Positions 20,415 through 40,431 of a DNA stretch of 64,000 nt are shown piece after piece (the first letter of the stretch is position 1; each line of letters begins with the position of its first letter). Origin of the DNA: Escherichia coli. GTDB lineage: Bacteria; Pseudomonadota; Gammaproteobacteria; Enterobacterales; Enterobacteriaceae. Under the pieces are notes generated by a model, which was given only the letters and a program-made list of their open reading frames with translations, searched no databases and was not told where the DNA came from. A program made the position numbers and the translations under genes. The stretch lies in NCBI RefSeq assembly GCF_024700885.2, contig NZ_CP117016.1. One strand, given 5' to 3'.

Positions 20415-20759
20415 TTACACGCCCAGTTCTTTACGCTTATCTGCGATCTTCTCGCGGAGCGTTTCGGCTTTGGCGTTATGGTGTGGCTTCTCGTTAAAGA
20501 GCAATTCGTACTCTTCACGGAGCTTATCCAGTTCACCATCATCTGACACATCGTTGATGATTTTGGTGCTGGTTGCTGCCATTGACACCTTTCCTGCAAC
20601 TTTTGCTTTTGCCTGTCTGGCTGCATCGTTAACAGGTTCCAGTGCGCTACCAGGCTCACCTTCGTATTCGATTTCTGCCCCCTCCGGCCACAGTGTGTTA
20701 TGGATATGAGAGAGGCGCAGAACGCGGTATCTTGGTTTCTCACCTGACATCGATATCAC
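20415..20759 (-). CDS. hypothetical virion-module protein
   Basis: ORF in structural operon. Confidence 0.45.
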   Translation of the reverse strand: MISMSGEKPRYRVLRLSHIHNTLWPEGAEIEYEGEPGSALEPVNDAARQAKAKVAGKVSMAATSTKIINDVSDDGELDKLREEYELLFNEKPHHNAKAETLREKIADKRKELGV

Positions 20760-20760
20760 C

Positions 20761-21198
20761 TTAACCAGTTACTTTTGAGCGGATCGGGTACGGCGTATTG
20801 GCATCAACATCCAGACTGATACCAGCAGTGAATTTGCCATCCGTTAGTGGGCCAGTTGCGACGGAGTAGTTAACACGCAGATATCGCTGAACACCGGCTG
20901 GCACCTTTGCAGAAACAACTCGCTTACCTGCTGTCAGGGTGGCCTTTGCCAGTGCGCCACTATCATAAATAGTGGTCCAAGAGCTGTTATTCTCACTCGT
21001 CTGCAACTGGATGTTTACAGTTGCCTCACCACTTGCCGTGGCGGCTTCGTTAACCAGCGCCCAAAACTCAAGCGGGTAACCCACGTCGATATCGCGACGG
21101 TTTCCATCAATTGGACCGAGATCGATTACGTCAGTAGAAGCCGCGGTATCAGTTACCGCCTGTGCTTCGGAGAACATCAACAGTTTGTCGGTGATCAT
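20761..21198 (-). CDS. hypothetical head-associated protein (possible decoration protein)
   Basis: Position directly downstream of the capsid gene. Confidence 0.4.
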   Translation of the reverse strand: MITDKLLMFSEAQAVTDTAASTDVIDLGPIDGNRRDIDVGYPLEFWALVNEAATASGEATVNIQLQTSENNSSWTTIYDSGALAKATLTAGKRVVSAKVPAGVQRYLRVNYSVATGPLTDGKFTAGISLDVDANTPYPIRSKVTG

Positions 21199-21249: not shown

Positions 21250-22242
21250 TTACACCACGCGGGCTTCTGTTTCCAGAAGCGCATCAGTTTCACGGATTGG
21301 TACACCACGGAATGACGTCCACCACTCGCCTTCTGTCTCTTTTACGCTGATAGCCAGAGATGTTTTCTCCAGAGACTGCAGATCAAGAGCCTGGCCTACA
21401 GTGCGGTTCATGTAGAACACCGGGCGGCCCATGCCACGGTTTGGAATGCGATGTAGTGCTTTAACCATCAACTTCGCAATATTTGCGGCAGAGGAAGGTT
21501 CTGAAAGATTGCTGACATCGATGTTTGCAATGCGAACAACATAACGCCAGTCACGCAGAGCAAGCCCGTTGTCCCATTTGTAATGGGTACGGTAGCCTTC
21601 GTACTTGCCGCCATTCGCATCTTCCAGTGTCACCTGGCCTTTATCTTCCATCTGGATGCCAGCCTTCTGCCCTTTCGGGAAGATGCCATGCACGGTGTTT
21701 TCACCCCACACCACTAACCAGATTGAGGTGTTATCTGTACCCGTGCCACCAGCATCAATGATGTTCTGAGCATTACCCGCAGACAGGCTGGAATAGCGGG
21801 AGGACAGTCCCATAAACTGCTGAGGGTTAACGCTGGAATCACCATAAAACAACGTCTGCGCCATCTGCTGATTCATCGCTTCAATAAATGCGCGGTCTTC
21901 AGACAGGCGGAACTCGGCGGTATTGCCGTTCAGATCAGCCAGTGACTTATCGACTTCAGCATAGGTTTCCAGCATGCCAACGGAATCGGTTACCTGCACT
22001 GTGGTTGATTTGCTTGGCTGTACGCCATAGTTCAGCAAACGCCAGGTAGCTGAAGGTAAACCAGAACGAATGGTGGTTCGGTGTCCGGTAGGAAGGTTCC
22101 CTTCGACAAAAGGCATATCCTGAAGGATCGGGTTAGTTTGACCGAGAAGCTCGATAATCTTATCGACTTTCCCGTTTGGATCGACGCGCTTACCCCAGTC
22201 AGCCAGCGTTAGCGCAGTTAAGCCTTTAACAGCCATTGTCAT
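21250..22242 (-). CDS. major capsid protein
   Basis: 330 aa, between scaffold and tail genes; strong codon usage. Confidence 0.7.
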   Translation of the reverse strand: MTMAVKGLTALTLADWGKRVDPNGKVDKIIELLGQTNPILQDMPFVEGNLPTGHRTTIRSGLPSATWRLLNYGVQPSKSTTVQVTDSVGMLETYAEVDKSLADLNGNTAEFRLSEDRAFIEAMNQQMAQTLFYGDSSVNPQQFMGLSSRYSSLSAGNAQNIIDAGGTGTDNTSIWLVVWGENTVHGIFPKGQKAGIQMEDKGQVTLEDANGGKYEGYRTHYKWDNGLALRDWRYVVRIANIDVSNLSEPSSAANIAKLMVKALHRIPNRGMGRPVFYMNRTVGQALDLQSLEKTSLAISVKETEGEWWTSFRGVPIRETDALLETEARVV

Positions 22243-25232: not shown

Positions 25233-25247
25233 TTACCTTTAAGGTAA
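25233..25247. promoter_or_regulatory. operator TTACC-TTTAA-GGTAA at start of head operon (with AACCACATATGA motif at 25181-25194)
   Basis: Same palindrome family as the immunity-region operators. Confidence 0.5.
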
Positions 25248-25569: not shown

Positions 25570-25646
25570 GTGGCATTAGCTCAGCTGGACAGAGCAACCG
25601 CCTTCTAAGCGGTTGGTCGCAGGTTCGAATCCTGCATGCCACGCCA
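25570..25646 (+). tRNA. tRNA-Arg (anticodon UCU), phage-encoded
   Basis: Perfect 7-bp acceptor stem GTGGCAT/ATGCCAC, D-arm GCTC..GAGC, anticodon loop CTTCTAA, T-loop GGTTCGAATCC, discriminator G and CCA. Confidence 0.9.
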
Positions 25647-26375: not shown

Positions 26376-27851
26376 TTAAGCATAGGGATCGTAATCTGTA
26401 ATGGCCTTGCCTTGCTGGTTCTGCTGACCTGGAATTCGCAGACGCTTCGACACAGGGAACGCAAACGTCAGCAGTAGCGCATCGCCTTTACCCGGCGAAC
26501 GCCCAAGCCGCTCCTTGATATCCTCCTTCGGTTCGATAACGATTTTACCGTCCACGCGAACTTTGTACTCTGCCGCCGACAGGTCGTCTGCAGTTTCCTG
26601 GTCATCCAGCATGCCGCCCAGCCTCAGCCATGTCTTGCATGAGTTGAACATCTCCCCGCGCTTGTTGAGCATCTGAGGGTCAGTTGACGCGCCACCGAAC
26701 GGAACAAGTTGCCATGTGCGCCCCCAGCCGTCACCGATTGACTTCAGGCCAGTACCGTAACCGAAGTCGATGAACACCGCGTCGGCCTGATACTGGTCTT
26801 CAAAGTCAGCGATACGCTTCGCCATAATCAGATCGTCGGTGGTCTTGTTGCCAGTCCACAGCACCTTACTGTGCAGCCCCTGCCGCAGGTATATCACCGC
26901 GTCATCAACGCCGGAGTATGCCGGGTCAACTCCGATTATCACCGGAGCATGTGCCACCTGCGCAGCGGTTACCACCCGTTTCATTGCCTCGTCAGTAAGA
27001 CCGGTAGGGATAAACTGCAATTCAGATGCATCAGGGAATATGCCACGCACACGGATTTTAACGAAGTCGCTGTCTTCCCCGTAGTCATCAACCCATTTCT
27101 GCAACTGCTGTTTGTTAGTGCCTTCCACCGTCCGGCTGTCAATCTGCGCAGTTTTCCAGCGGTGTTTATATTTGCGGAAACATTCTCGGAAACGTCCGGT
27201 ATTACGCGTCGGGTTTCCGAACGCCACCCAGATAATCTCAGTGTCTTCGTCCGTAAGCGCACCCTCGGCAACTTCCCACACCAGATCCGCAATGTTCGAC
27301 GCTTCATCGAATACCACGATGATACGTTTGCGCTCGTTGTGTAGTCCGGCGAACGCCTCAGTATTGTGCTCAGACCAGGGGATTGCGTCAGCTCGCCACC
27401 GCTTGTCGTGCCCAGGATCATTGCTGTACATCGCGGTAGCGGTACAGGTGAACCAGTCTTTCGTGATAGCAAGGTTCGACCACTTGATAATTTCCGGCCA
27501 GGTCTTCGTTCGTAGCTGGTTGTCGGTGTTGGCGGTCACCACGATCTTACAATCCTCGCAAGTGGACATGCCCCAGTTGATCAGCATTGAGATGAATGCG
27601 GATTTACCAATACCGTGACCAGAAGCGCGTGCCAGCATAAGCGGCTGATAGCGCGTCTCTGGATTCTGCAGGTGATCACGTATCTCTCGGAACGCATCAG
27701 CCTGCCACTGACGTGGGCCGGTGGCATGTGCCAGTTCAGTCCCCTCTTCCCCCCACGGGAACGCATAGAGGGCATAGCCAAGCGGATCGTGAGTGAACCC
27801 TGCAATATCCTCGATCAACTGCTCTTCAGGAGATAACGCTGTATCTGTCAC
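26376..27851 (-). CDS. terminase large subunit
   Basis: Walker A-like SGHGIGKS; ~490 aa; followed by the portal gene. Confidence 0.85.
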   Translation of the reverse strand: MTDTALSPEEQLIEDIAGFTHDPLGYALYAFPWGEEGTELAHATGPRQWQADAFREIRDHLQNPETRYQPLMLARASGHGIGKSAFISMLINWGMSTCEDCKIVVTANTDNQLRTKTWPEIIKWSNLAITKDWFTCTATAMYSNDPGHDKRWRADAIPWSEHNTEAFAGLHNERKRIIVVFDEASNIADLVWEVAEGALTDEDTEIIWVAFGNPTRNTGRFRECFRKYKHRWKTAQIDSRTVEGTNKQQLQKWVDDYGEDSDFVKIRVRGIFPDASELQFIPTGLTDEAMKRVVTAAQVAHAPVIIGVDPAYSGVDDAVIYLRQGLHSKVLWTGNKTTDDLIMAKRIADFEDQYQADAVFIDFGYGTGLKSIGDGWGRTWQLVPFGGASTDPQMLNKRGEMFNSCKTWLRLGGMLDDQETADDLSAAEYKVRVDGKIVIEPKEDIKERLGRSPGKGDALLLTFAFPVSKRLRIPGQQNQQGKAITDYDPYA

Positions 27852-28522
27852 TGATTACCATCCTGACGTTCTTTGAGTCGCTTCCTGGCTGCTGCTATGC
27901 GATCAGCAATTGTCACATTCACATTAACATCCAGACGTTCTTTGAACGCGTTGACATCAACATGCTTACCAATCAGCTCAAGGTTCTTCACCTTGTCAGG
28001 CCATTTAATTTTTTTGAGGATTGTCTCTATCGAATCCTCGTTCATGTTCATGATGGTCGATGACAGATCAAAGCCACTAAGCGTAGTGCGCCAGATTTTC
28101 GGCCACTCGCGGATTGGCTTAAGGCTCCCATCGTCGTTGAGGATGTCGATCACATCCATCTGGTCGATCTCCACCAGGCGCATAAGAACGTAATCGGCAC
28201 TGACGCGCATTCGTTTGTTGCGCTCCTCCATCAGCTCGGCAATCCGTTTTTGAATGCGTTCATCGCGCATCATGACACTGGCTTTAACTGCCGCTGTATT
28301 TGGGGAGAATCCTGCGTTAATCGCTGCCTGAGTCTGGTTTTCAGGCGTTTTGATGTATGACTGGCAATAAGCCTCCTGCATTGCTGTTAGTGGCTTAAAT
28401 TGCGTTGATTTGCGTTTATAGGTTTTAGGTTCAGCAGGCATCATAACCACCGTGGTAATAGTTACCGTTTTGGTAATAGTACCATGCAAAACAAAGCCGC
28501 CATAGTTGGCGGCAGTATTCAA
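27848..28522 (-). CDS. terminase small subunit
   Basis: Overlaps terminase large start by 4 nt; start may instead be the MMPAEPK Met at 28444. Confidence 0.6.
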   Translation of the reverse strand: MNTAANYGGFVLHGTITKTVTITTVVMMPAEPKTYKRKSTQFKPLTAMQEAYCQSYIKTPENQTQAAINAGFSPNTAAVKASVMMRDERIQKRIAELMEERNKRMRVSADYVLMRLVEIDQMDVIDILNDDGSLKPIREWPKIWRTTLSGFDLSSTIMNMNEDSIETILKKIKWPDKVKNLELIGKHVDVNAFKERLDVNVNVTIADRIAAARKRLKERQDGNQ

Positions 28523-32217: not shown

Positions 32218-32294
32218 TTACCTCTGAGGTAATTAAAAACCACATAAGACACGAAATCAATAGAGTTTAGAATATTTTATTACCTGATGGGTAA
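32218..32294. promoter_or_regulatory. two operators TTACC-TCTGA-GGTAA (32218-32232) and TTACC-TGATG-GGTAA (32280-32294) flanking an AACCACATAAG motif
   Basis: Palindrome family shared with the immunity region; directly upstream of the gene starting at 32214. Confidence 0.5.
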
Positions 32295-34145: not shown

Positions 34146-34225
34146 GGTAAGCCCTGTTATTAGTATTGGGATTACGGTCATTTTGTGCTGACACAAAAAA
34201 AAGATCAACCACATTTGGTTTTTTA

Positions 34226-34240
34226 TTACCCTTAAGGTGC
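34226..34240. promoter_or_regulatory. operator-like site TTACC-CTTAA-GGTGC plus palindrome AACCACATTTGGTT (34207-34220), downstream of a tR1-like hairpin
   Basis: Hairpin AGACCGCC/GGCGGTCT at 34265-34282. Confidence 0.4.
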
Positions 34241-34295
34241 GAATAGATATGAAAAGACCGCCGGATGGCGGTCTACAGAGGGTTGTGGCTGGATA

Positions 34296-34526
34296 TCATG
34301 AGTAGAAGAAGTATGCCAATTCTGCTTTTGAGCGCAGCCATTGTCTTGTTTTACAGGCTTTAAAAAGCCCATTCATCAATACCTTACCTGGCATTTTGCG
34401 CTTACCTGTTAAGTGAGTCTGGATATAGTGACTCGTCGTTCCGGCTTCCTGTGCGAAGGCTTCACGCTCATCCGGAGTAAGTGCAAGCCAGTGCTTTTTG
34501 AAATCGAAATGTCCGTTATCGCTCAT
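34296..34526 (-). CDS. Cro-like HTH regulator
   Basis: 76 aa; divergent from the repressor gene; HTH-like segment EAFAQEAGTTSHYIQTHLTG. Confidence 0.55.
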   Translation of the reverse strand: MSDNGHFDFKKHWLALTPDEREAFAQEAGTTSHYIQTHLTGKRKMPGKVLMNGLFKACKTRQWLRSKAELAYFFYS

Positions 34527-34562
34527 AGCTATTGCCTGATATTTATTTCAGATAATAAATAT

Positions 34563-34625
34563 TCACCCATAAGGTAACAAAAATCAAGGATAGTTACCCA
34601 TGAGGTGCATTTACCTGTTGGGTAA
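34563..34625. promoter_or_regulatory. tripartite operator in the repressor/cro intergenic region
   Basis: TCACC-CATAA-GGTAA (34563-34577), TTACC-CATGA-GGTGC (34594-34608), TTACC-TGTTG-GGTAA (34611-34625). Confidence 0.6.
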
Positions 34626-34680
34626 TATTGCTTTAAATTGAATCATCTTCTGATTCATATATGAGGCGATTTTCCAGAAA

Positions 34681-35265
34681 ATGAAAAGTATCCAAGACGT
34701 CCGCAGGCAAAATCTCAACGACTTGATCGACCGTGAATTCAATGGTGTTCAGACGCGGATGGCTGAAAAACTTGGAACTCAGGCAAATCTGGTAAACCGC
34801 TGGGCTCTTGGCAAGAAGGTTATCGGCGACCAGGTTGCGCGAAAAATTGAAGCTGCCGCCAATAAACCACGTAACTGGCTTGATATCGATCGCTCGCTTT
34901 CTCAGGAGGGTTTTCAGCCTGTCGGACCAAGCGACATTGGTCAGCTGGCGGCTCACAACCTGGAACGCTGGATGAGCGAAAGCCGCGACCTTTCAACACA
35001 GGGAAAACTTCACCGCGCATCCGGCGTCGCCCAAGTGACAATCAGCCGCCTGTTAAACAATGAGGTCAGCGTTTCCATTTCCACCCTGGAGAATGTTGCA
35101 TCTGCATTCGGACGTCACGGATATGAACTACTGATTCACCCGCACGACCCTGCAACTATCAACTATGACCGCTCGCGCTACGCATTGTTACCTGAAACCG
35201 AGAAAGCAAAGATCGAAAGTTACATTGAATTTGTCATCAACCAGAACGAAAAAAACAAACAATAA
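34681..35265 (+). CDS. prophage repressor (CI-like), two HTH domains, no S24 peptidase domain
   Basis: HTH-like segments near residues 20-60 and 110-150; no Ala-Gly / Ser-Lys autocleavage motifs seen; divergent from the cro-like gene. Confidence 0.65.
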   Translation: MKSIQDVRRQNLNDLIDREFNGVQTRMAEKLGTQANLVNRWALGKKVIGDQVARKIEAAANKPRNWLDIDRSLSQEGFQPVGPSDIGQLAAHNLERWMSESRDLSTQGKLHRASGVAQVTISRLLNNEVSVSISTLENVASAFGRHGYELLIHPHDPATINYDRSRYALLPETEKAKIESYIEFVINQNEKNKQ

Positions 35266-35286
35266 AATCATATTTTTCAGTAAGTA

Positions 35287-35311
35287 AGCCGCCAAATGGC
35301 GGCTTTTTTAT
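35287..35311 (+). terminator. rho-independent terminator after repressor gene
   Basis: AGCCGCC-aaat-GGCGGCT followed by T6. Confidence 0.65.
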
Positions 35312-35322
35312 TGTCTATTTAA

Positions 35323-35399
35323 TTACCTTGCAGGTAATTTTTTCAACTCATACCTATTGACATCAAACCAAATACGCATAATCATTACCTCAACGGTAA
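35323..35399. promoter_or_regulatory. two operators TTACC-TTGCA-GGTAA (35323-35337) and TTACC-TCAAC-GGTAA (35385-35399), OL-like
   Basis: Same palindrome family; upstream of the early-left operon. Confidence 0.55.
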
Positions 35400-35418
35400 C
35401 AAGCTGAGGTAACAAGTT

Positions 35419-35571
35419 ATGCAGTGGAAAATCATCAACGGTTGGTACTGCGTTACTGCATGCGGATTCATGAGCTGGAAGTTCCGCACCTTACAGGAAG
35501 GCATTAAGTGGGCTTTCGTCAGCAAAGAAGCTCGCGATGTGGCCAACGATAACGAGATATGGGAGGGCTGA
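35419..35571 (+). CDS. small hypothetical protein (50 aa)
   Basis: GAGGT Shine-Dalgarno; first ORF after the OL-like operators; not in the supplied ORF track (under 60 aa). Confidence 0.3.
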   Translation: MQWKIINGWYCVTACGFMSWKFRTLQEGIKWAFVSKEARDVANDNEIWEG

Positions 35572-35573
35572 TA

Positions 35574-35873
35574 ATGAACGTTAATCAGCAGCAAAATCTT
35601 CAAAAAATCATGCTGGCATTCGACAAGGACTACCGCCTGTCAGAACAGCTATATGACCGACAAGTTGAACTGATCGAAAGCATCCGGCTTCATCAACTAG
35701 CCTCAACTTTCGACGCTGTAACAGGTAAAGGCGTTCGCCAGGAAGTACTGGAGGCCGCTAAAGACAGTCCAGAGTTCGAAGAACTGATGGATTCCTACCG
35801 GCGCGAGGCAATGGCAATTATCGCCCGCTGGGATCTGGCTGATCAGCTTGATGGGCAGAGGGACGCGGCATGA
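35574..35873 (+). CDS. hypothetical early protein (99 aa)
   Basis: GGGAGGG Shine-Dalgarno; start at MNVNQQQ. Confidence 0.5.
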   Translation: MNVNQQQNLQKIMLAFDKDYRLSEQLYDRQVELIESIRLHQLASTFDAVTGKGVRQEVLEAAKDSPEFEELMDSYRREAMAIIARWDLADQLDGQRDAA

Positions 35874-36691
35874 AGCCGGGAATTTATTTCGACATCAGCA
35901 ACGAAGACTACCACGCCGGGGACGGCGTGAGTAAGTCGCAACTGGACATGGTTGCCAAGAATCCGGCGCTTCTTAAATGGGTTCAGGCAGCACCAGAAGA
36001 CGAAGAGAAAAAGTCTGCACTGGATATGGGAACCGCATTGCACTGTCTGCTTCTGGAGCCTGGAGAATTCAACAAACGCTTCATTGTTTCACCGAAATTC
36101 GATCGTCGGACGAAACAAGGTAAAGCTGACGAAGAAGCATTTCTTCGTGATGTAGCGGATATGGGGATTACGGTACTTGATGCCGAGCAGTGGCGGAAAC
36201 TGGAGCTGATGCGTGATAGCGCAATGGCTCACCCGGCGGCACGCTGGATGCTGGAAGCACCTGGTTACTGCGAAGCATCAATGTACTGGAATGATGAAGA
36301 GACTGGTGAGTTGTGCCGCATTCGTCCAGACAAATGGCTGAACGAGCACAACGTGATCGTCGACGTGAAAAAGGTTGCAGATATGGACCGTTTTGCACGC
36401 CACATCGAGGAATTCCGCTACCACGTGCAGGACGCAATGTACCGCGAAGGAGCGATGAGGGTTACTGGTCAGTCGCATGGTTTTTTCTTTCTTGCCGTGA
36501 GCGAAAGCATTGATTGTGGTCGGTATCCGGTACGCGTGTTCGAGCTGGATGCGCCGGATGTCGATGCCGGGCACGCTCTGTTCCGCCGGGATCTGAATAC
36601 CTATCACGAATGCCGCATCAATGATGAATGGGGCGGCGTGGAAATTATTAAACGCCCTGACTGGGCACGTAAACAGGATATGTACGTATGA
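35870..36691 (+). CDS. phage exonuclease (YqaJ/RecE-like PD-(D/E)xK recombination nuclease)
   Basis: Precedes a RecT-like gene with 4-nt overlap; conserved acidic and Lys residues (DVKK) of PD-(D/E)xK nucleases. Confidence 0.6.
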   Translation: MKPGIYFDISNEDYHAGDGVSKSQLDMVAKNPALLKWVQAAPEDEEKKSALDMGTALHCLLLEPGEFNKRFIVSPKFDRRTKQGKADEEAFLRDVADMGITVLDAEQWRKLELMRDSAMAHPAARWMLEAPGYCEASMYWNDEETGELCRIRPDKWLNEHNVIVDVKKVADMDRFARHIEEFRYHVQDAMYREGAMRVTGQSHGFFFLAVSESIDCGRYPVRVFELDAPDVDAGHALFRRDLNTYHECRINDEWGGVEIIKRPDWARKQDMYV

Positions 36692-37569
36692 GCAATGATA
36701 TCGCAATCACATCACAACCAGGCGCAACTGTAGGTACTGCTGCGGCAATCTTCAGCCCGGAGGGCATGAATCAACTGGTGCGTTTCGCGGAGTTGATGTC
36801 ACAAAGCAAAGCGACTGTACCGAAACATCTTGAAGGCAAACCTGCCGATTGTCTGGCGGTGACCATGCAGGCGGCACAGTGGGGAATGAACCCTTTCGCC
36901 GTGGCGCAGAAAACGCATGTGGTAAACGGAACGTTAGGCTACGAAGCACAGTTGGTAAACGCGGTCGTATCCTCTTCCAGCCTGCTAGCGACACGCCTGA
37001 ATTATCGCTGGAGCGGTGACTGGTCGAATGTTAACGGCAAAACAGATAAATCACCGAATCTGACGGTAACTGTGTCAGCAGTTCTTAAAGGAGAAGCAGA
37101 ACCCCGTGAGCTTACCATCAGTATGGCGCAAGCCGGAGTGCGTAACTCTCCATTGTGGGAACAGGATCCGCGCCAGCAGCTTGCCTATCTTTGCACGAAA
37201 CGATGGGCTCGCCTGCACGCTCCTGATGTACTTCTCGGTGTTTACACCCCTGACGAATTACAGGAAACGGCACCGCGCGTTGAGCGAGACATTACTCCGC
37301 AAACGACTACTGCTGCGGGAATGAACAGTCTGATCAACGCTAAACCAGTGAAAAAGCCTGATGAGCAAACGCGTAAAGCGGATAGCCGTGATCCAGAAGA
37401 AATGCTGATGGCCTTTACCAGCGCAGCGATGAATTACAGCACTGTCTCCGAACTGGATAAGGCTTACAAATACATTGCACAAAAACTTTCAGATGATGAC
37501 GAACTGCTGGCAAAAGCCACCGACGTTTACAGCGTTCGTCGGGAAGAATTAAACGAAACATCTATGTAA
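36688..37569 (+). CDS. recT: RecT-like single-strand annealing protein
   Basis: Family-typical N-terminal region; paired with the exonuclease gene. Confidence 0.7.
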   Translation: MSNDIAITSQPGATVGTAAAIFSPEGMNQLVRFAELMSQSKATVPKHLEGKPADCLAVTMQAAQWGMNPFAVAQKTHVVNGTLGYEAQLVNAVVSSSSLLATRLNYRWSGDWSNVNGKTDKSPNLTVTVSAVLKGEAEPRELTISMAQAGVRNSPLWEQDPRQQLAYLCTKRWARLHAPDVLLGVYTPDELQETAPRVERDITPQTTTAAGMNSLINAKPVKKPDEQTRKADSRDPEEMLMAFTSAAMNYSTVSELDKAYKYIAQKLSDDDELLAKATDVYSVRREELNETSM

Positions 37570-40364: not shown

Positions 40365-40406
40365 AATTCACCCGTATAGAAACCATTTTCATGACGGTAT
40401 GAGAGT

Positions 40407-40431
40407 ATACCTTTAAGGTAATACCGTCACC
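40407..40431. promoter_or_regulatory. integrase upstream region: ATACC-TTTAA-GGTAA palindrome overlapping putative arm-type site ATACCGTCACC
   Basis: 11-mer ATACCGTCACC also present at 1627-1637 near attL. Confidence 0.4.

What the first reader, a model, noticed from the sequence alone, without database searches (positions are those of the whole stretch)
34527..35420. Immunity region with tripartite operator and a two-HTH repressor lacking a peptidase domain
Divergent repressor (+) and Cro-like (-) genes flank three 15-bp palindromes of form TTACC-N5-GGTAA (34563-34577, 34594-34608, 34611-34625). Two more lie downstream of the repressor terminator (35323-35337, 35385-35399), giving an OR/OL-like layout. 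The repressor is 194 aa with two apparent HTH segments and no recognisable LexA-like cleavage site or Ser/Lys dyad, which implies a different induction route.
Basis: partly seen in the sequence, partly recalled or inferred. Interest (0 to 1): 0.5.

Follow-up and report, generated by a model that had tools for sequence, protein, structure and literature searches.

The report
Known phiV10-type Rep/Ant prophage immunity switch
This is the lysogeny switch of a phiV10/epsilon15-like prophage in E. coli, whose non-cleavable repressor is switched off by a small SOS-controlled antirepressor encoded 26 kb away; the system has already been described and crystallised in the related Salmonella phage SPC32H, so it is correct but ordinary.

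Summary
At the stated coordinates a 194-aa repressor (+) and a 76-aa Cro-like gene (-) diverge from three TTACC-N5-GGTAA palindromes (0, 1 and 2 mismatches). Two perfect copies flank a near-consensus promoter just past the repressor terminator. The window has 8 perfect copies against 0.04 expected. Pfam finds only HTH families in the repressor and no Peptidase_S24.

The interpretation also holds, but nothing here is new. The window is a 39-kb phiV10-like (Uetakevirus) prophage at guaA. The repressor is 100% identical to phiV10 gp40, already annotated as having two HTH motifs, and to ZX5 ORF21, which was tested by overexpression. It is a full-length homologue of SPC32H Rep (PDB 5D50/5D4Z).

The "different induction route" is in the window. 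An 85-aa gene at 8089-8346 is 87% identical to SPC32H Ant (5D50 chain E) and sits behind a near-consensus LexA box at 8050-8069.

The "second HTH" lies in the part of Rep that dimerises, tetramerises and binds Ant, not in the DNA-binding domain.

Beyond the finding, the palindrome marks at least seven loci of the prophage. Its positions and spacings (17+30/31; 62 bp) are conserved in four Rep lineages that are only 42-45% identical.

The parts
34681..35265 (+). Rep, the prophage maintenance repressor (194 aa). N-terminal HTH DNA-binding domain (~1-70, recognition helix NLVNRW at 36-41), HTH-like middle domain (~90-150), C-terminal beta-strand/helix module (~155-190). No peptidase domain.
   Evidence: ORF. 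Pfam HTH only, no S24. 100% identical to phiV10 gp40 and ZX5 ORF21. E=4e-42 and 42% identity over the full length to SPC32H Rep, PDB 5D50_A; residues 89-190 align to 5D4Z. Domain names from PMC9986798.
34296..34526 (-). Cro-like small HTH protein (76 aa), first gene of the rightward early operon (followed by a 66-aa gene, a DnaT-like protein and a P-like replication protein).
   Evidence: ORF. PHROG 35 'transcriptional repressor' E=5.6e-13. No Pfam or NCBIfam hit. The role is inferred from position only.
34563..34577 (.). OR operator nearest cro (TCACCCATAAGGTAA, 1 mismatch). It overlaps the spacer and -10 of the inferred PR.
   Evidence: Conserved in four lineages (alignment A3). The invariant AAAAATCAA at 34580-34588 is TTGATT on the - strand, the likely -35 of PR.
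34594..34608 (.). Middle OR operator (TTACCCATGAGGTGC, 2 mismatches), 17 bp centre-to-centre from the next one.
34611..34625 (.). OR operator nearest rep (perfect). It overlaps the inferred rep promoter; the conserved GGTAATAT and TTAAATT follow it.
   Evidence: The promoter assignment is inferred, not mapped.
35286..35305 (+). Intrinsic terminator after rep.
   Evidence: Annotated in phiV10.
35323..35337 (.). Upstream OL operator (perfect), ending 19 bp before the PL -35.
35357..35385 (+). PL-like early-left promoter, TTGACA-17-AATCAT, driving the 50-aa and 104-aa genes, the PD-(D/E)XK exonuclease, RecT, an Xis/AlpA-like gene, PerC and a methylase.
   Evidence: 10 of 12 consensus match. CTATTGAC is invariant in four lineages. 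Gene content.
35385..35399 (.). Downstream OL operator (perfect). It starts on the last base of the -10 and covers the expected start site. It is 62 bp centre-to-centre from the upstream one.
8089..8346 (+). ant, a small antirepressor (85 aa).
   Evidence: 87% identical to SPC32H Ant; E=3.3e-47 to PDB 5D50 chain E 'Anti-repressor protein'. PHROG 450, and the C-terminal part of PHROG 1760 'anti-repressor'.
8050..8069 (+). LexA box TACTGTATAAATATACAGTT (18 of 20 to consensus, CTGT-N8-ACAG intact). It overlaps the inferred ant promoter (TGGATA 8027-8032, 17 nt spacer, TACTGT 8050-8055).
   Evidence: It is the only match in the window; 0 expected. Conserved in SPC32H and BUCT711. SPC32N differs from SPC32H here by CAG to AAG.
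7998..8012 (.). Perfect Rep-type palindrome in the divergent ant / tail-fibre intergenic region.
   Evidence: Conserved in SPC32H (20013), Tyrion (21776) and BUCT711.
32218..32294 (-). Pair of perfect palindromes (32218-32232, 32280-32294), 62 bp apart. They follow the terminator after the P-like gene and flank a conserved TTGATT-17-TTTAAT element upstream of the DUF1064 gene.
   Evidence: Alignment A4. Same pair and spacing in SPC32H (35972/36034) and Tyrion (37265/37327).
28444..28476 (.). Two palindromes (28444-28458 with 1 mismatch, 28462-28476 perfect), 18 bp apart, immediately upstream of the probable terS start at 28441.
   Evidence: Syntenic sites in SPC32H (12) and Tyrion (67/85).
25233..25247 (.). 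Perfect palindrome in the divergent region between the tRNA-Arg moron and the portal/head operon, preceded by TTGACA.
   Evidence: Syntenic in SPC32H (3175) and Tyrion (3969).
40407..40421 (.). One-mismatch palindrome (ATACCTTTAAGGTAA) 43 bp upstream of the int start codon, inside a longer inverted repeat (GACGGTAT...ATACCGTC).
   Evidence: Syntenic one-mismatch sites upstream of int in SPC32H (26960) and Tyrion (28568).
34226..34240 (.). Degenerate palindrome (2 mismatches) just past the cro terminator (34255-34274, - strand).
   Evidence: A counterpart is present in Tyrion (35365), BUCT711 (L007 746) and SPC32H.

Best explanation
This is the lysis-lysogeny switch of an apparently complete phiV10-like (genus Uetakevirus) prophage inserted at the 3' end of guaA. 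Rep (34681-35265) recognises the ATTACC-N5-GGTAAT palindromes through its N-terminal HTH. Rep assembles into tetramers through its HTH-like middle domain and its C-terminal beta/helix module. Three operators between rep and cro control the divergent PR and rep promoters. Two operators 62 bp apart bracket PL. Further copies sit at the promoter region after the replication genes, in front of terS, at the tRNA/head divergent region, at the ant/tail-fibre divergent region and upstream of int. One protein can therefore plausibly silence every transcription unit. Rep has no autocleavage domain. Induction instead works like this: in the lysogen, host LexA sits on the box at 8050-8069 and blocks the ant promoter. 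DNA damage leads to RecA-stimulated LexA cleavage, so the 85-aa Ant is made. Ant binds the C-terminal part of Rep, breaks the DNA-binding-competent tetramer and releases Rep from the operators. PR and PL then fire. What is shown here: the sequence features, the homologies and their conservation. What was shown by others in relatives: this exact Rep sequence blocks lytic gene expression when overexpressed, and the Rep/Ant complex and tetramer exist. What is inferred: Rep binding to each named site, the promoter positions, and LexA control in this strain.
For: Identity of the element: 100% DNA match to E. coli MLI114 and ~97% to phiV10, with the same gene order. The att cores given for phiV10/ZX5 lie at 1539 and 40555. 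Rep is 100% identical to phiV10 gp40 and ZX5 ORF21. Overexpression of ZX5 ORF21 cut endolysin and holin transcripts by more than 99.9% and abolished free phage (PMC9782041). Rep matches PDB 5D50_A over its full length at E=4e-42 and 42% identity. Pfam finds no S24. Ant matches 5D50_E at E=3.3e-47, and its homologue is annotated 'ant' in SPC32H. The LexA box is unique in the window with 0 expected. It is conserved upstream of ant in SPC32H and a Klebsiella relative, and the SPC32H/SPC32N pair differ by CAG to AAG in it. Operators: 8 perfect against 0.04 expected. All lie in intergenic DNA of the prophage. They occur at syntenic places with the same spacings in SPC32H, Tyrion and BUCT711. They stand out as conserved islands in otherwise diverged intergenic DNA. 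The helix NLVNRW is invariant across Reps that are only 42-45% identical. A Pseudomonas phage cI with a homologous N-terminal domain has TTACC-N4-GGTAA repeats upstream of its gene. Published description of SPC32H: Rep binds palindromic sites as a tetramer and an Ant tetramer binds two Rep dimers (PMC9638917). The DBD / middle dimerisation domain / C-terminal tetramerisation and Ant-binding architecture is from PMC9986798.
Against: There is no binding, transcript or induction data for this prophage. The two primary SPC32H papers (PMC3807360, PMC4983836) were not readable here, so LexA control of ant and non-cleavage of Rep rest on my memory of their abstracts plus the sequence evidence above. 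Rep is only 42% identical to the crystallised protein. The ZX5 paper assigned the antirepressor role to a different, Bro-N-domain protein (ORF4) and left the small Ant homologue as 'hypothetical'; that Bro-N gene is absent from the syntenic place here. Apart from PL, promoter assignments are weak consensus matches. The Cro-like protein may share the same sites, so conservation does not prove that Rep is the only ligand.
Confidence: 0.88

Rival explanations
1. A lambda-type switch: Rep is inactivated by RecA-stimulated self-cleavage despite lacking a recognisable peptidase domain.
For: The layout is lambda-like: divergent rep/cro, tripartite OR, and OL/PL next to recombination genes. A distant relative of the N-terminal domain is fused to an S24 peptidase in Pseudomonas phage PseuP_224.
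Against: Pfam finds no S24 match even at E<=10. The whole C-terminal half aligns instead to the oligomerisation/Ant-binding fragment of SPC32H Rep (5D4Z). A cognate LexA-controlled Ant gene is present.
Confidence: 0.03
2. The palindromes, or the distal ones at least, are mainly sites for another protein rather than Rep operators. Candidates are the Cro-like protein, the PerC-like or AlpA-like regulators, or a late-gene activator.
For: Sites precede late genes (terS, head operon, tail fibre), which classical repressors do not usually control directly. Cro proteins normally share operators with their repressor. No binding data were obtained here.
Against: The same 15-17 bp motif makes up OR and OL, where a maintenance repressor must act. 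The Rep recognition helix is invariant wherever the motif is conserved. A homologous DNA-binding domain in an unrelated Pseudomonas phage sits next to TTACC-N4-GGTAA sites. SPC32H Rep is reported to bind palindromic sites.
Confidence: 0.12
3. Both HTH-like segments bind DNA, so each Rep monomer reads two DNA elements.
For: Pfam scores the second segment (106-147) better than the first as HTH_3/HTH_26/LacI. The phiV10 annotation also counts two HTH motifs.
Against: The equivalent fragment of SPC32H Rep (92-198) crystallised as the homotetramer. It is described as a dimerisation domain plus a tetramerisation/Ant-binding domain, with the DBD at the N-terminus. Only one conserved DNA motif class is seen at the operators.
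Confidence: 0.07

Closest known systems
Rep/Ant antirepression switch of Salmonella podophage SPC32H (Kim & Ryu 2013, J Virol 87:11775; Kim et al. 2016, PNAS 113:E2480; PDB 5D50, 5D4Z)
   Same: Same genus and same gene order. Rep is homologous over its full length (42% identity, E=4e-42) and Ant is 87% identical. The LexA box lies at the same place upstream of ant. The same TTACC-N5-GGTAA palindromes occur at the same loci with the same spacings.
   Different: The host is E. coli and the Rep allele is diverged: the immunity-region DNA is not alignable by megablast. There are two rather than three sites at OL, and the central 5 bp of the operators are less A/T-rich. No experiment has been done on this allele's interaction with Ant.
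Escherichia phage phiV10 gp40 / vB_EcoP_ZX5 ORF21 (Uetakevirus phiV10; PMC9782041)
   Same: Identical repressor protein, with ~97% identical immunity-region DNA. Repressor function was shown by overexpression in ZX5. Integration is at guaA with the same att core.
   Different: phiV10, ZX5 and Tyrion carry an additional Bro-N-domain 'antirepressor' next to the small ant. This prophage has only the small ant and a 98-aa membrane protein there.
LexA-controlled antirepressors of Gifsy-1/Gifsy-3/Fels-2 (PMC3121763) and Tum of coliphage 186
   Same: Same logic: a non-cleavable repressor, and a small antirepressor gene repressed by host LexA and located away from the immunity region.
   Different: No sequence relationship was detected. 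Ant matched only PHROGs 450, 15539 and 1760. The repressor architecture also differs. By my recollection of Kim & Ryu 2013, Ant was described as structurally distinct from those antirepressors.
Lambda CI / P22 C2 (HTH + Peptidase_S24 repressors)
   Same: Divergent repressor/cro genes, a tripartite OR, a second operator set at PL, and multimerisation of repressor dimers.
   Different: There is no S24 domain, so inactivation is by a protein partner rather than cleavage. Operators also occur outside OR/OL.

Membership tests
SPC32H-type Rep (epsilon15-like podophage repressor: DBD + middle dimerisation domain + C-terminal tetramerisation/Ant-binding domain) | Full-length sequence homology to the crystallised Rep, including the 92-198 fragment | tested here: met
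   phmmer E=4e-42 over residues 1-190 against 5D50_A, and E=4e-20 over residues 89-190 against 5D4Z_A. BLASTP 42% identity, E=2e-53.
SPC32H-type Rep | N-terminal HTH DNA-binding domain with a conserved recognition helix | tested here: met
   Weak Pfam YdaS/HTH_3 match at residues 21-67. PHROG 5736 and 12107 repressor matches at 1-76. NLVNRW is invariant in four lineages.
SPC32H-type Rep | No autocleavage (S24) domain; not cleaved on SOS induction | tested here: inconclusive
   Absence of S24 was shown. Non-cleavage itself is an experiment and cannot be tested here.
SPC32H-type Rep | Cognate small Ant protein encoded in the same genome next to the tail-spike/fibre gene | tested here: met
   ORF 8089-8346, E=3.3e-47 to 5D50_E. 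It is adjacent to and divergent from the tail-fibre gene 4819-7893, as in SPC32H.
SPC32H-type Rep | ant promoter overlapped by a LexA box | tested here: met
   TACTGTATAAATATACAGTT at 8050-8069, 20 bp before the ant ATG, with 0 expected by chance. It aligns with the SPC32H box, which is mutated in SPC32N. LexA binding itself was not tested.
SPC32H-type Rep | Binds palindromic operators as a tetramer | not testable with these tools
   Palindromes are present, non-random and conserved. Binding and stoichiometry need EMSA, footprinting or SEC-MALS.
Lambda CI / LexA-like cleavable repressors | C-terminal Peptidase_S24 domain with a Ser/Lys dyad and an Ala-Gly cleavage site | tested here: not met
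   No S24 hit in Pfam at E<=10, nor in NCBIfam or PHROGs. The C-terminal half is homologous to a different, solved domain.
Uetakevirus (epsilon15/phiV10-like) prophage | Genome synteny and nucleotide similarity to phiV10; integration at guaA | tested here: met

The most novel reading that the evidence does not exclude
Rep may be a genome-wide silencer rather than an OR/OL repressor. ATTACC-N5-GGTAAT sites sit at every transcription unit of the phage: PR/Prep, PL, the post-replication promoter, terS, the head/tRNA region, the ant/tail-fibre region and int. At two promoters a pair of sites with an invariant 62-bp (about six-turn) spacing brackets the -35/-10. This suggests that a single Rep tetramer clamps the promoter in a micro-loop through its two trans-paired DNA-binding-domain dimers. 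The half-site and recognition helix are invariant across Rep lineages of 42-45% identity and Ant is 63-87% conserved. E. coli, Salmonella, Enterobacter and Klebsiella members may therefore be cross-immune and cross-inducible. I could not establish whether the primary SPC32H or epsilon15 papers already describe this site distribution.
Probability: 0.3. Interest if true: 0.4.

Novelty: already known. Interest (0 to 1): 0.15.

Why it matters
The value is mainly in annotation. About 10% of complete E. coli genomes (560 of 5,426) carry this immunity region labelled only 'helix-turn-helix domain-containing protein' and 'hypothetical protein'. The small ant gene is also unlabelled in phiV10, ZX5 and RefSeq. 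Naming them Rep, Cro-like and LexA-controlled Ant predicts that these prophages are SOS-inducible through an antirepressor, not through repressor cleavage. That is relevant to antibiotic-triggered induction and to the O-antigen-modifying phiV10 group in O157:H7. It also suggests that the ZX5 study attributed the antirepressor role to the Bro-N protein while overlooking the SPC32H-type Ant. The conserved 62-bp operator pairs give a concrete, testable geometry for how the tetrameric Rep represses, which one review-level source says is 'not extensively characterized'.

Tried and rejected
1. I tried to read the primary papers: the epsilon15 genome paper by DOI and by PMC2698709, Kim & Ryu 2013 (PMC3807360) and Kim et al. 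2016 (PMC4983836). None is held, so statements about them rest on secondary citations, GenBank and PDB labels, and my memory.

2. NCBIfam gave nothing above cut-off for Rep, Cro-like or Ant. The only hits were sub-threshold RstR, HigA and TreR HTH matches for Rep.

3. Pfam on the Cro-like protein gave nothing meaningful.

4. I looked for a second Ant-like or Bro-N antirepressor copy in the window by tblastn and found none.

5. I looked for a palindrome in the lysis/acyltransferase divergent region (3456-3635), where SPC32H and Tyrion have 1-mismatch sites, and saw none.

6. Generic promoter scans around 7998 and 32218-32294 gave only weak or oddly oriented hits, so I did not rely on them. The tool's PR candidate (TTGTTA-17-TATTAT) is not conserved in the other lineages. 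The invariant TTGATT is a better -35 candidate.

7. A PRE-like promoter at the degenerate 34226 site was considered and dropped for lack of a -35.

8. Large loci were not available to Python, so whole-genome site scans of the relatives were done with the DNA search instead.

9. Structure prediction, fold search and the large protein-database searches were not run. The PDB sequence match already settles the fold and family.
Full report
**1. What is in the sequence**

The region reads as the first-stage reader described. A 194-aa ORF lies on the + strand (34681-35265). A 76-aa ORF lies on the - strand (34296-34526). They are separated by 154 bp.

That spacer holds three 15-bp inverted repeats:
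- TCACCCATAAGGTAA (34563-34577), 1 mismatch to TTACC-N5-GGTAA.
- TTACCCATGAGGTGC (34594-34608), 2 mismatches.
- TTACCTGTTGGGTAA (34611-34625), perfect.

A G+C-rich hairpin with a T-run (35286-35305) follows the 194-aa gene. After it come two perfect copies at 35323-35337 and 35385-35399. These two bracket the best promoter match in the region, TTGACA-17-AATCAT at 35357-35385 (10 of 12).

The motif is not a chance feature. The window holds 8 perfect copies against 0.04 expected. The 17-bp form ATTACC-N5-GGTAAT, allowing one mismatch, occurs 9 times against 0.08 expected.

Pfam finds only helix-turn-helix families in the 194-aa protein. HTH_3, HTH_26 and LacI match at residues 104-148, and a weaker YdaS/HTH_3 match covers 21-67. 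There is no Peptidase_S24 match.

**2. Where the window comes from**

The immunity region is 100% identical to the chromosome of E. coli MLI114. It is 96-97% identical to Escherichia phage phiV10 and a dozen sibling phages of the genus Uetakevirus, the epsilon15-like podophages.

RefSeq and GenBank annotation plus the att core quoted for phiV10/ZX5 place a 39-kb prophage between 1539 and 40571, at the 3' end of guaA.

The layout is lambda-like. On the - strand the order is cro-like gene, a 66-aa gene, a DnaT-like gene, a P-like gene, accessory genes, terminase, head, tail and lysis. On the + strand the order is rep, two small genes, a PD-(D/E)XK exonuclease, RecT, an AlpA/Xis-like gene, PerC and a methylase. 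The integrase is at the end.

About 560 of 5,426 complete E. coli genomes carry this immunity region.

**3. The repressor is already known**

The 194-aa protein is 100% identical to phiV10 gp40 and to ORF21 of phage vB_EcoP_ZX5.
- The phiV10 GenBank record already calls it 'putative transcriptional repressor; two helix-turn-helix motifs'.
- In ZX5, overexpressing this exact protein removed free phage and reduced endolysin and holin transcripts by more than 99.9% (PMC9782041).

The protein is also a full-length homologue of the repressor Rep of Salmonella phage SPC32H (42% identity; E=4e-42 to PDB 5D50 chain A). Residues 89-190 align to the crystallised fragment Rep 92-198 (PDB 5D4Z).

Open-access papers summarise that work as follows:
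- Rep has an N-terminal DNA-binding domain, a middle dimerisation domain and a C-terminal tetramerisation domain that also binds the antirepressor Ant (PMC9986798).
- Rep binds palindromic DNA as a tetramer, with DNA-binding-domain pairs contributed by different dimers.
- Ant, itself a tetramer, binds two Rep dimers and breaks the tetramer (PMC9638917).

**4. The 'different induction route' is visible in the window**

Scanning for LexA boxes gave one hit, TACTGTATAAATATACAGTT at 8050-8069. It matches the consensus at 18 of 20 positions with none expected by chance. It lies 20 bp upstream of an 85-aa ORF (8089-8346, +) that diverges from the tail-fibre gene.

That ORF is 87% identical to the SPC32H gene annotated 'ant' and matches PDB 5D50 chain E, 'Anti-repressor protein', at E=3.3e-47.

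An alignment of the ant upstream regions from the window, SPC32H, SPC32N and a Klebsiella relative shows three conserved elements:
- the LexA box,
- a CTGGATA element 17 nt upstream of it, the likely -35 (the box's own TACTGT would serve as the -10),
- a Rep-type palindrome.

SPC32N differs from SPC32H in this stretch by a CAG to AAG change inside the LexA box. This matches my recollection of Kim & Ryu 2013 that a single LexA-box mutation makes Ant constitutive. I could not read that paper or the 2016 structure paper.

The most likely mechanism is therefore: LexA represses ant. SOS induction removes LexA. Ant is made and disassembles the Rep tetramer. Rep leaves the operators.

This logic is shared with Gifsy-1, Gifsy-3, Fels-2 and coliphage 186 (PMC3121763), but the proteins are unrelated.

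**5. Evidence linking the palindrome to Rep**

Three other Rep lineages were examined:
- Enterobacter phage Tyrion, 78% identical.
- Klebsiella phage BUCT711, 44-45% identical.
- SPC32H, 42% identical.

All have the same TTACC-N5-GGTAA motif, enriched to the same degree (SPC32H: 18 copies at up to 1 mismatch against 0.74 expected; Tyrion: 15 against 0.63). The copies lie at the same places.

Centre-to-centre spacings are nearly invariant:

| Site group | Window | SPC32H | Tyrion | BUCT711 |
|---|---|---|---|---|
| OR (two steps) | 17 + 31 | 17 + 30 | outer pair 48 | 17 + 30 |
| PL pair | 62 | 62 | 62 | 63 |
| Pair after the P-like gene | 62 | 62 | 62 | not examined |
| Pair before terS | 18 | single site | 18 | not examined |

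In alignments of otherwise diverged intergenic DNA, only a few islands are conserved:
- the operators,
- the PL -35 (CTATTGAC),
- AAAAATCAA between the first two OR sites, which is TTGATT on the cro strand and the likely PR -35,
- GGTAATAT...TTAAATT in front of rep.

The predicted recognition helix NLVNRW (residues 36-41) is invariant in all four lineages, although the proteins are only 42-45% identical overall.

As an outgroup, the cI of Pseudomonas phage PseuP_224 has a homologous N-terminal domain (39% identity) fused to a classical S24 peptidase. Upstream of its gene are TTACC-N4-GGTAA-type repeats. The same half-site thus accompanies the same DNA-binding-domain family in an unrelated context.

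**6. Anatomy and inferred working of the operators**

*OR.* The cro-proximal site (34563-34577) covers the spacer and -10 of the inferred PR. The rep-proximal perfect site (34611-34625) overlaps the inferred rep promoter. The weak middle site is 17 bp from it. Like lambda OR, this arrangement would allow both repression of PR and autoregulation of rep. The promoters are not mapped.

*PL.* One site ends 19 bp before the -35. The other begins on the last base of the -10. The pair sits on the same face of the helix, about six turns apart.

*After the P-like gene.* The same bracket geometry recurs after the terminator that follows this gene. On the - strand the order is operator, 19 nt, TTGATT, 17 nt, TTTAAT, operator, ATG of the DUF1064 gene.

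A Rep tetramer carries two DNA-binding-domain pairs. One tetramer clamping both sites of a pair is therefore an attractive model, but it is an inference.

*Other sites.* Further sites lie directly upstream of the probable terS start, in the tRNA-Arg/head divergent region, in the ant/tail-fibre divergent region, and 43 bp upstream of int.

**7. Rivals**

- RecA-dependent self-cleavage is very unlikely. There is no S24 domain, the C-terminal half is homologous to a different solved domain, and a cognate Ant is present.
- The distal palindromes might serve Cro or another regulator. This cannot be excluded without binding data, though OR and OL use the identical motif.
- DNA binding by the second HTH-like domain is contradicted by the published domain assignment but has not been tested for this allele.
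- The ZX5 authors named a Bro-N-domain protein (ORF4) as the antirepressor and left the small Ant homologue unannotated. That Bro-N gene is absent here. In this prophage, then, the small LexA-controlled Ant is the only candidate.

**8. Verdict**

However, the system is the already described Rep/Ant antirepression switch of epsilon15-like podophages, carried by a common phiV10-type E. coli prophage whose repressor protein is identical to previously annotated and tested ones.

- Novelty: already known.
- Interest: low.
- Possibly undescribed: the genome-wide, position-conserved operator set with fixed 62-bp pairs, and the implied cross-immunity and cross-induction across the genus. I could not check this against the primary literature.

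Noticed in passing
window 8050-8069 and 8089-8346: A near-consensus LexA box lies directly upstream of an unannotated ('hypothetical protein') 85-aa gene that is 87% identical to the SPC32H antirepressor Ant. The same gene is also labelled 'hypothetical' in phiV10, ZX5, TL-2011b and epsilon15.
   Followed up: yes
window 7998, 25233, 28444/28462, 32218/32280, 40407 (plus degenerate 34226): The operator palindrome occurs well outside the immunity region, in front of most transcription units of the prophage. The positions are syntenic in SPC32H, Tyrion and BUCT711. Paired sites are exactly 62 bp apart at two promoters.
   Followed up: yes
window 27848-28522 (- strand): The RefSeq terS start (28522) is probably over-extended. 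The SPC32H-equivalent start MPAEPK... is at 28441, which places the two palindromes just upstream of the gene rather than inside it.
   Followed up: partly
L009 (Pseudomonas phage PseuP_224, OP795451.1 10629-12641), cI at locus 895-1632: This cI has an N-terminal domain homologous to Rep (39% identity) fused to a classical S24 peptidase. TTACC-N4-GGTAA-type repeats lie upstream of the gene. The same DNA-binding-domain family is thus coupled to either induction mechanism, with a 4-bp instead of a 5-bp spacer.
   Followed up: partly
L006 (Tyrion) 20417-21121 and 21393-21407; phiV10 and ZX5 likewise: Relatives carry a second, Bro-N-domain 'antirepressor' next to the small ant. Its C-terminal part resembles Ant (PHROG 1760 positions 178-225). 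In Tyrion it has its own Rep-type palindrome upstream. The gene is absent from this prophage, where a 98-aa membrane protein (8378-8674, -) occupies the place.
   Followed up: partly
window 7948-7975, 32233-32250, 34205-34226: A recurring A-rich element (AAAAACCACATATGG / AAAACCACATAAG / CCACATTTGGTTTTTT) lies next to an ATTACC half-site or palindrome. It is conserved in SPC32H, Tyrion and BUCT711 at the tail-fibre and post-P promoters. Its function is unknown; it may be part of the -10/spacer of Rep-controlled promoters.
   Followed up: no
window 40394-40428: The int-upstream palindrome is nested in a longer inverted repeat, GACGGTAT-N-ATACCTTTAAGGTAAT-ACCGTC, about 130 bp from the attR core. 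It may be an Int/Xis arm site or an int promoter operator.
   Followed up: no
window 35870-37569: The PD-(D/E)XK exonuclease and RecT are separate genes here, as in SPC32H and Tyrion. The phiV10 record annotates a single fused 'recET' ORF.
   Followed up: no
window 25570-25646 and 3636-4763: The prophage carries a tRNA-Arg and an acyltransferase gene (probable O-antigen modification moron) between the tail-fibre and lysis genes.
   Followed up: no
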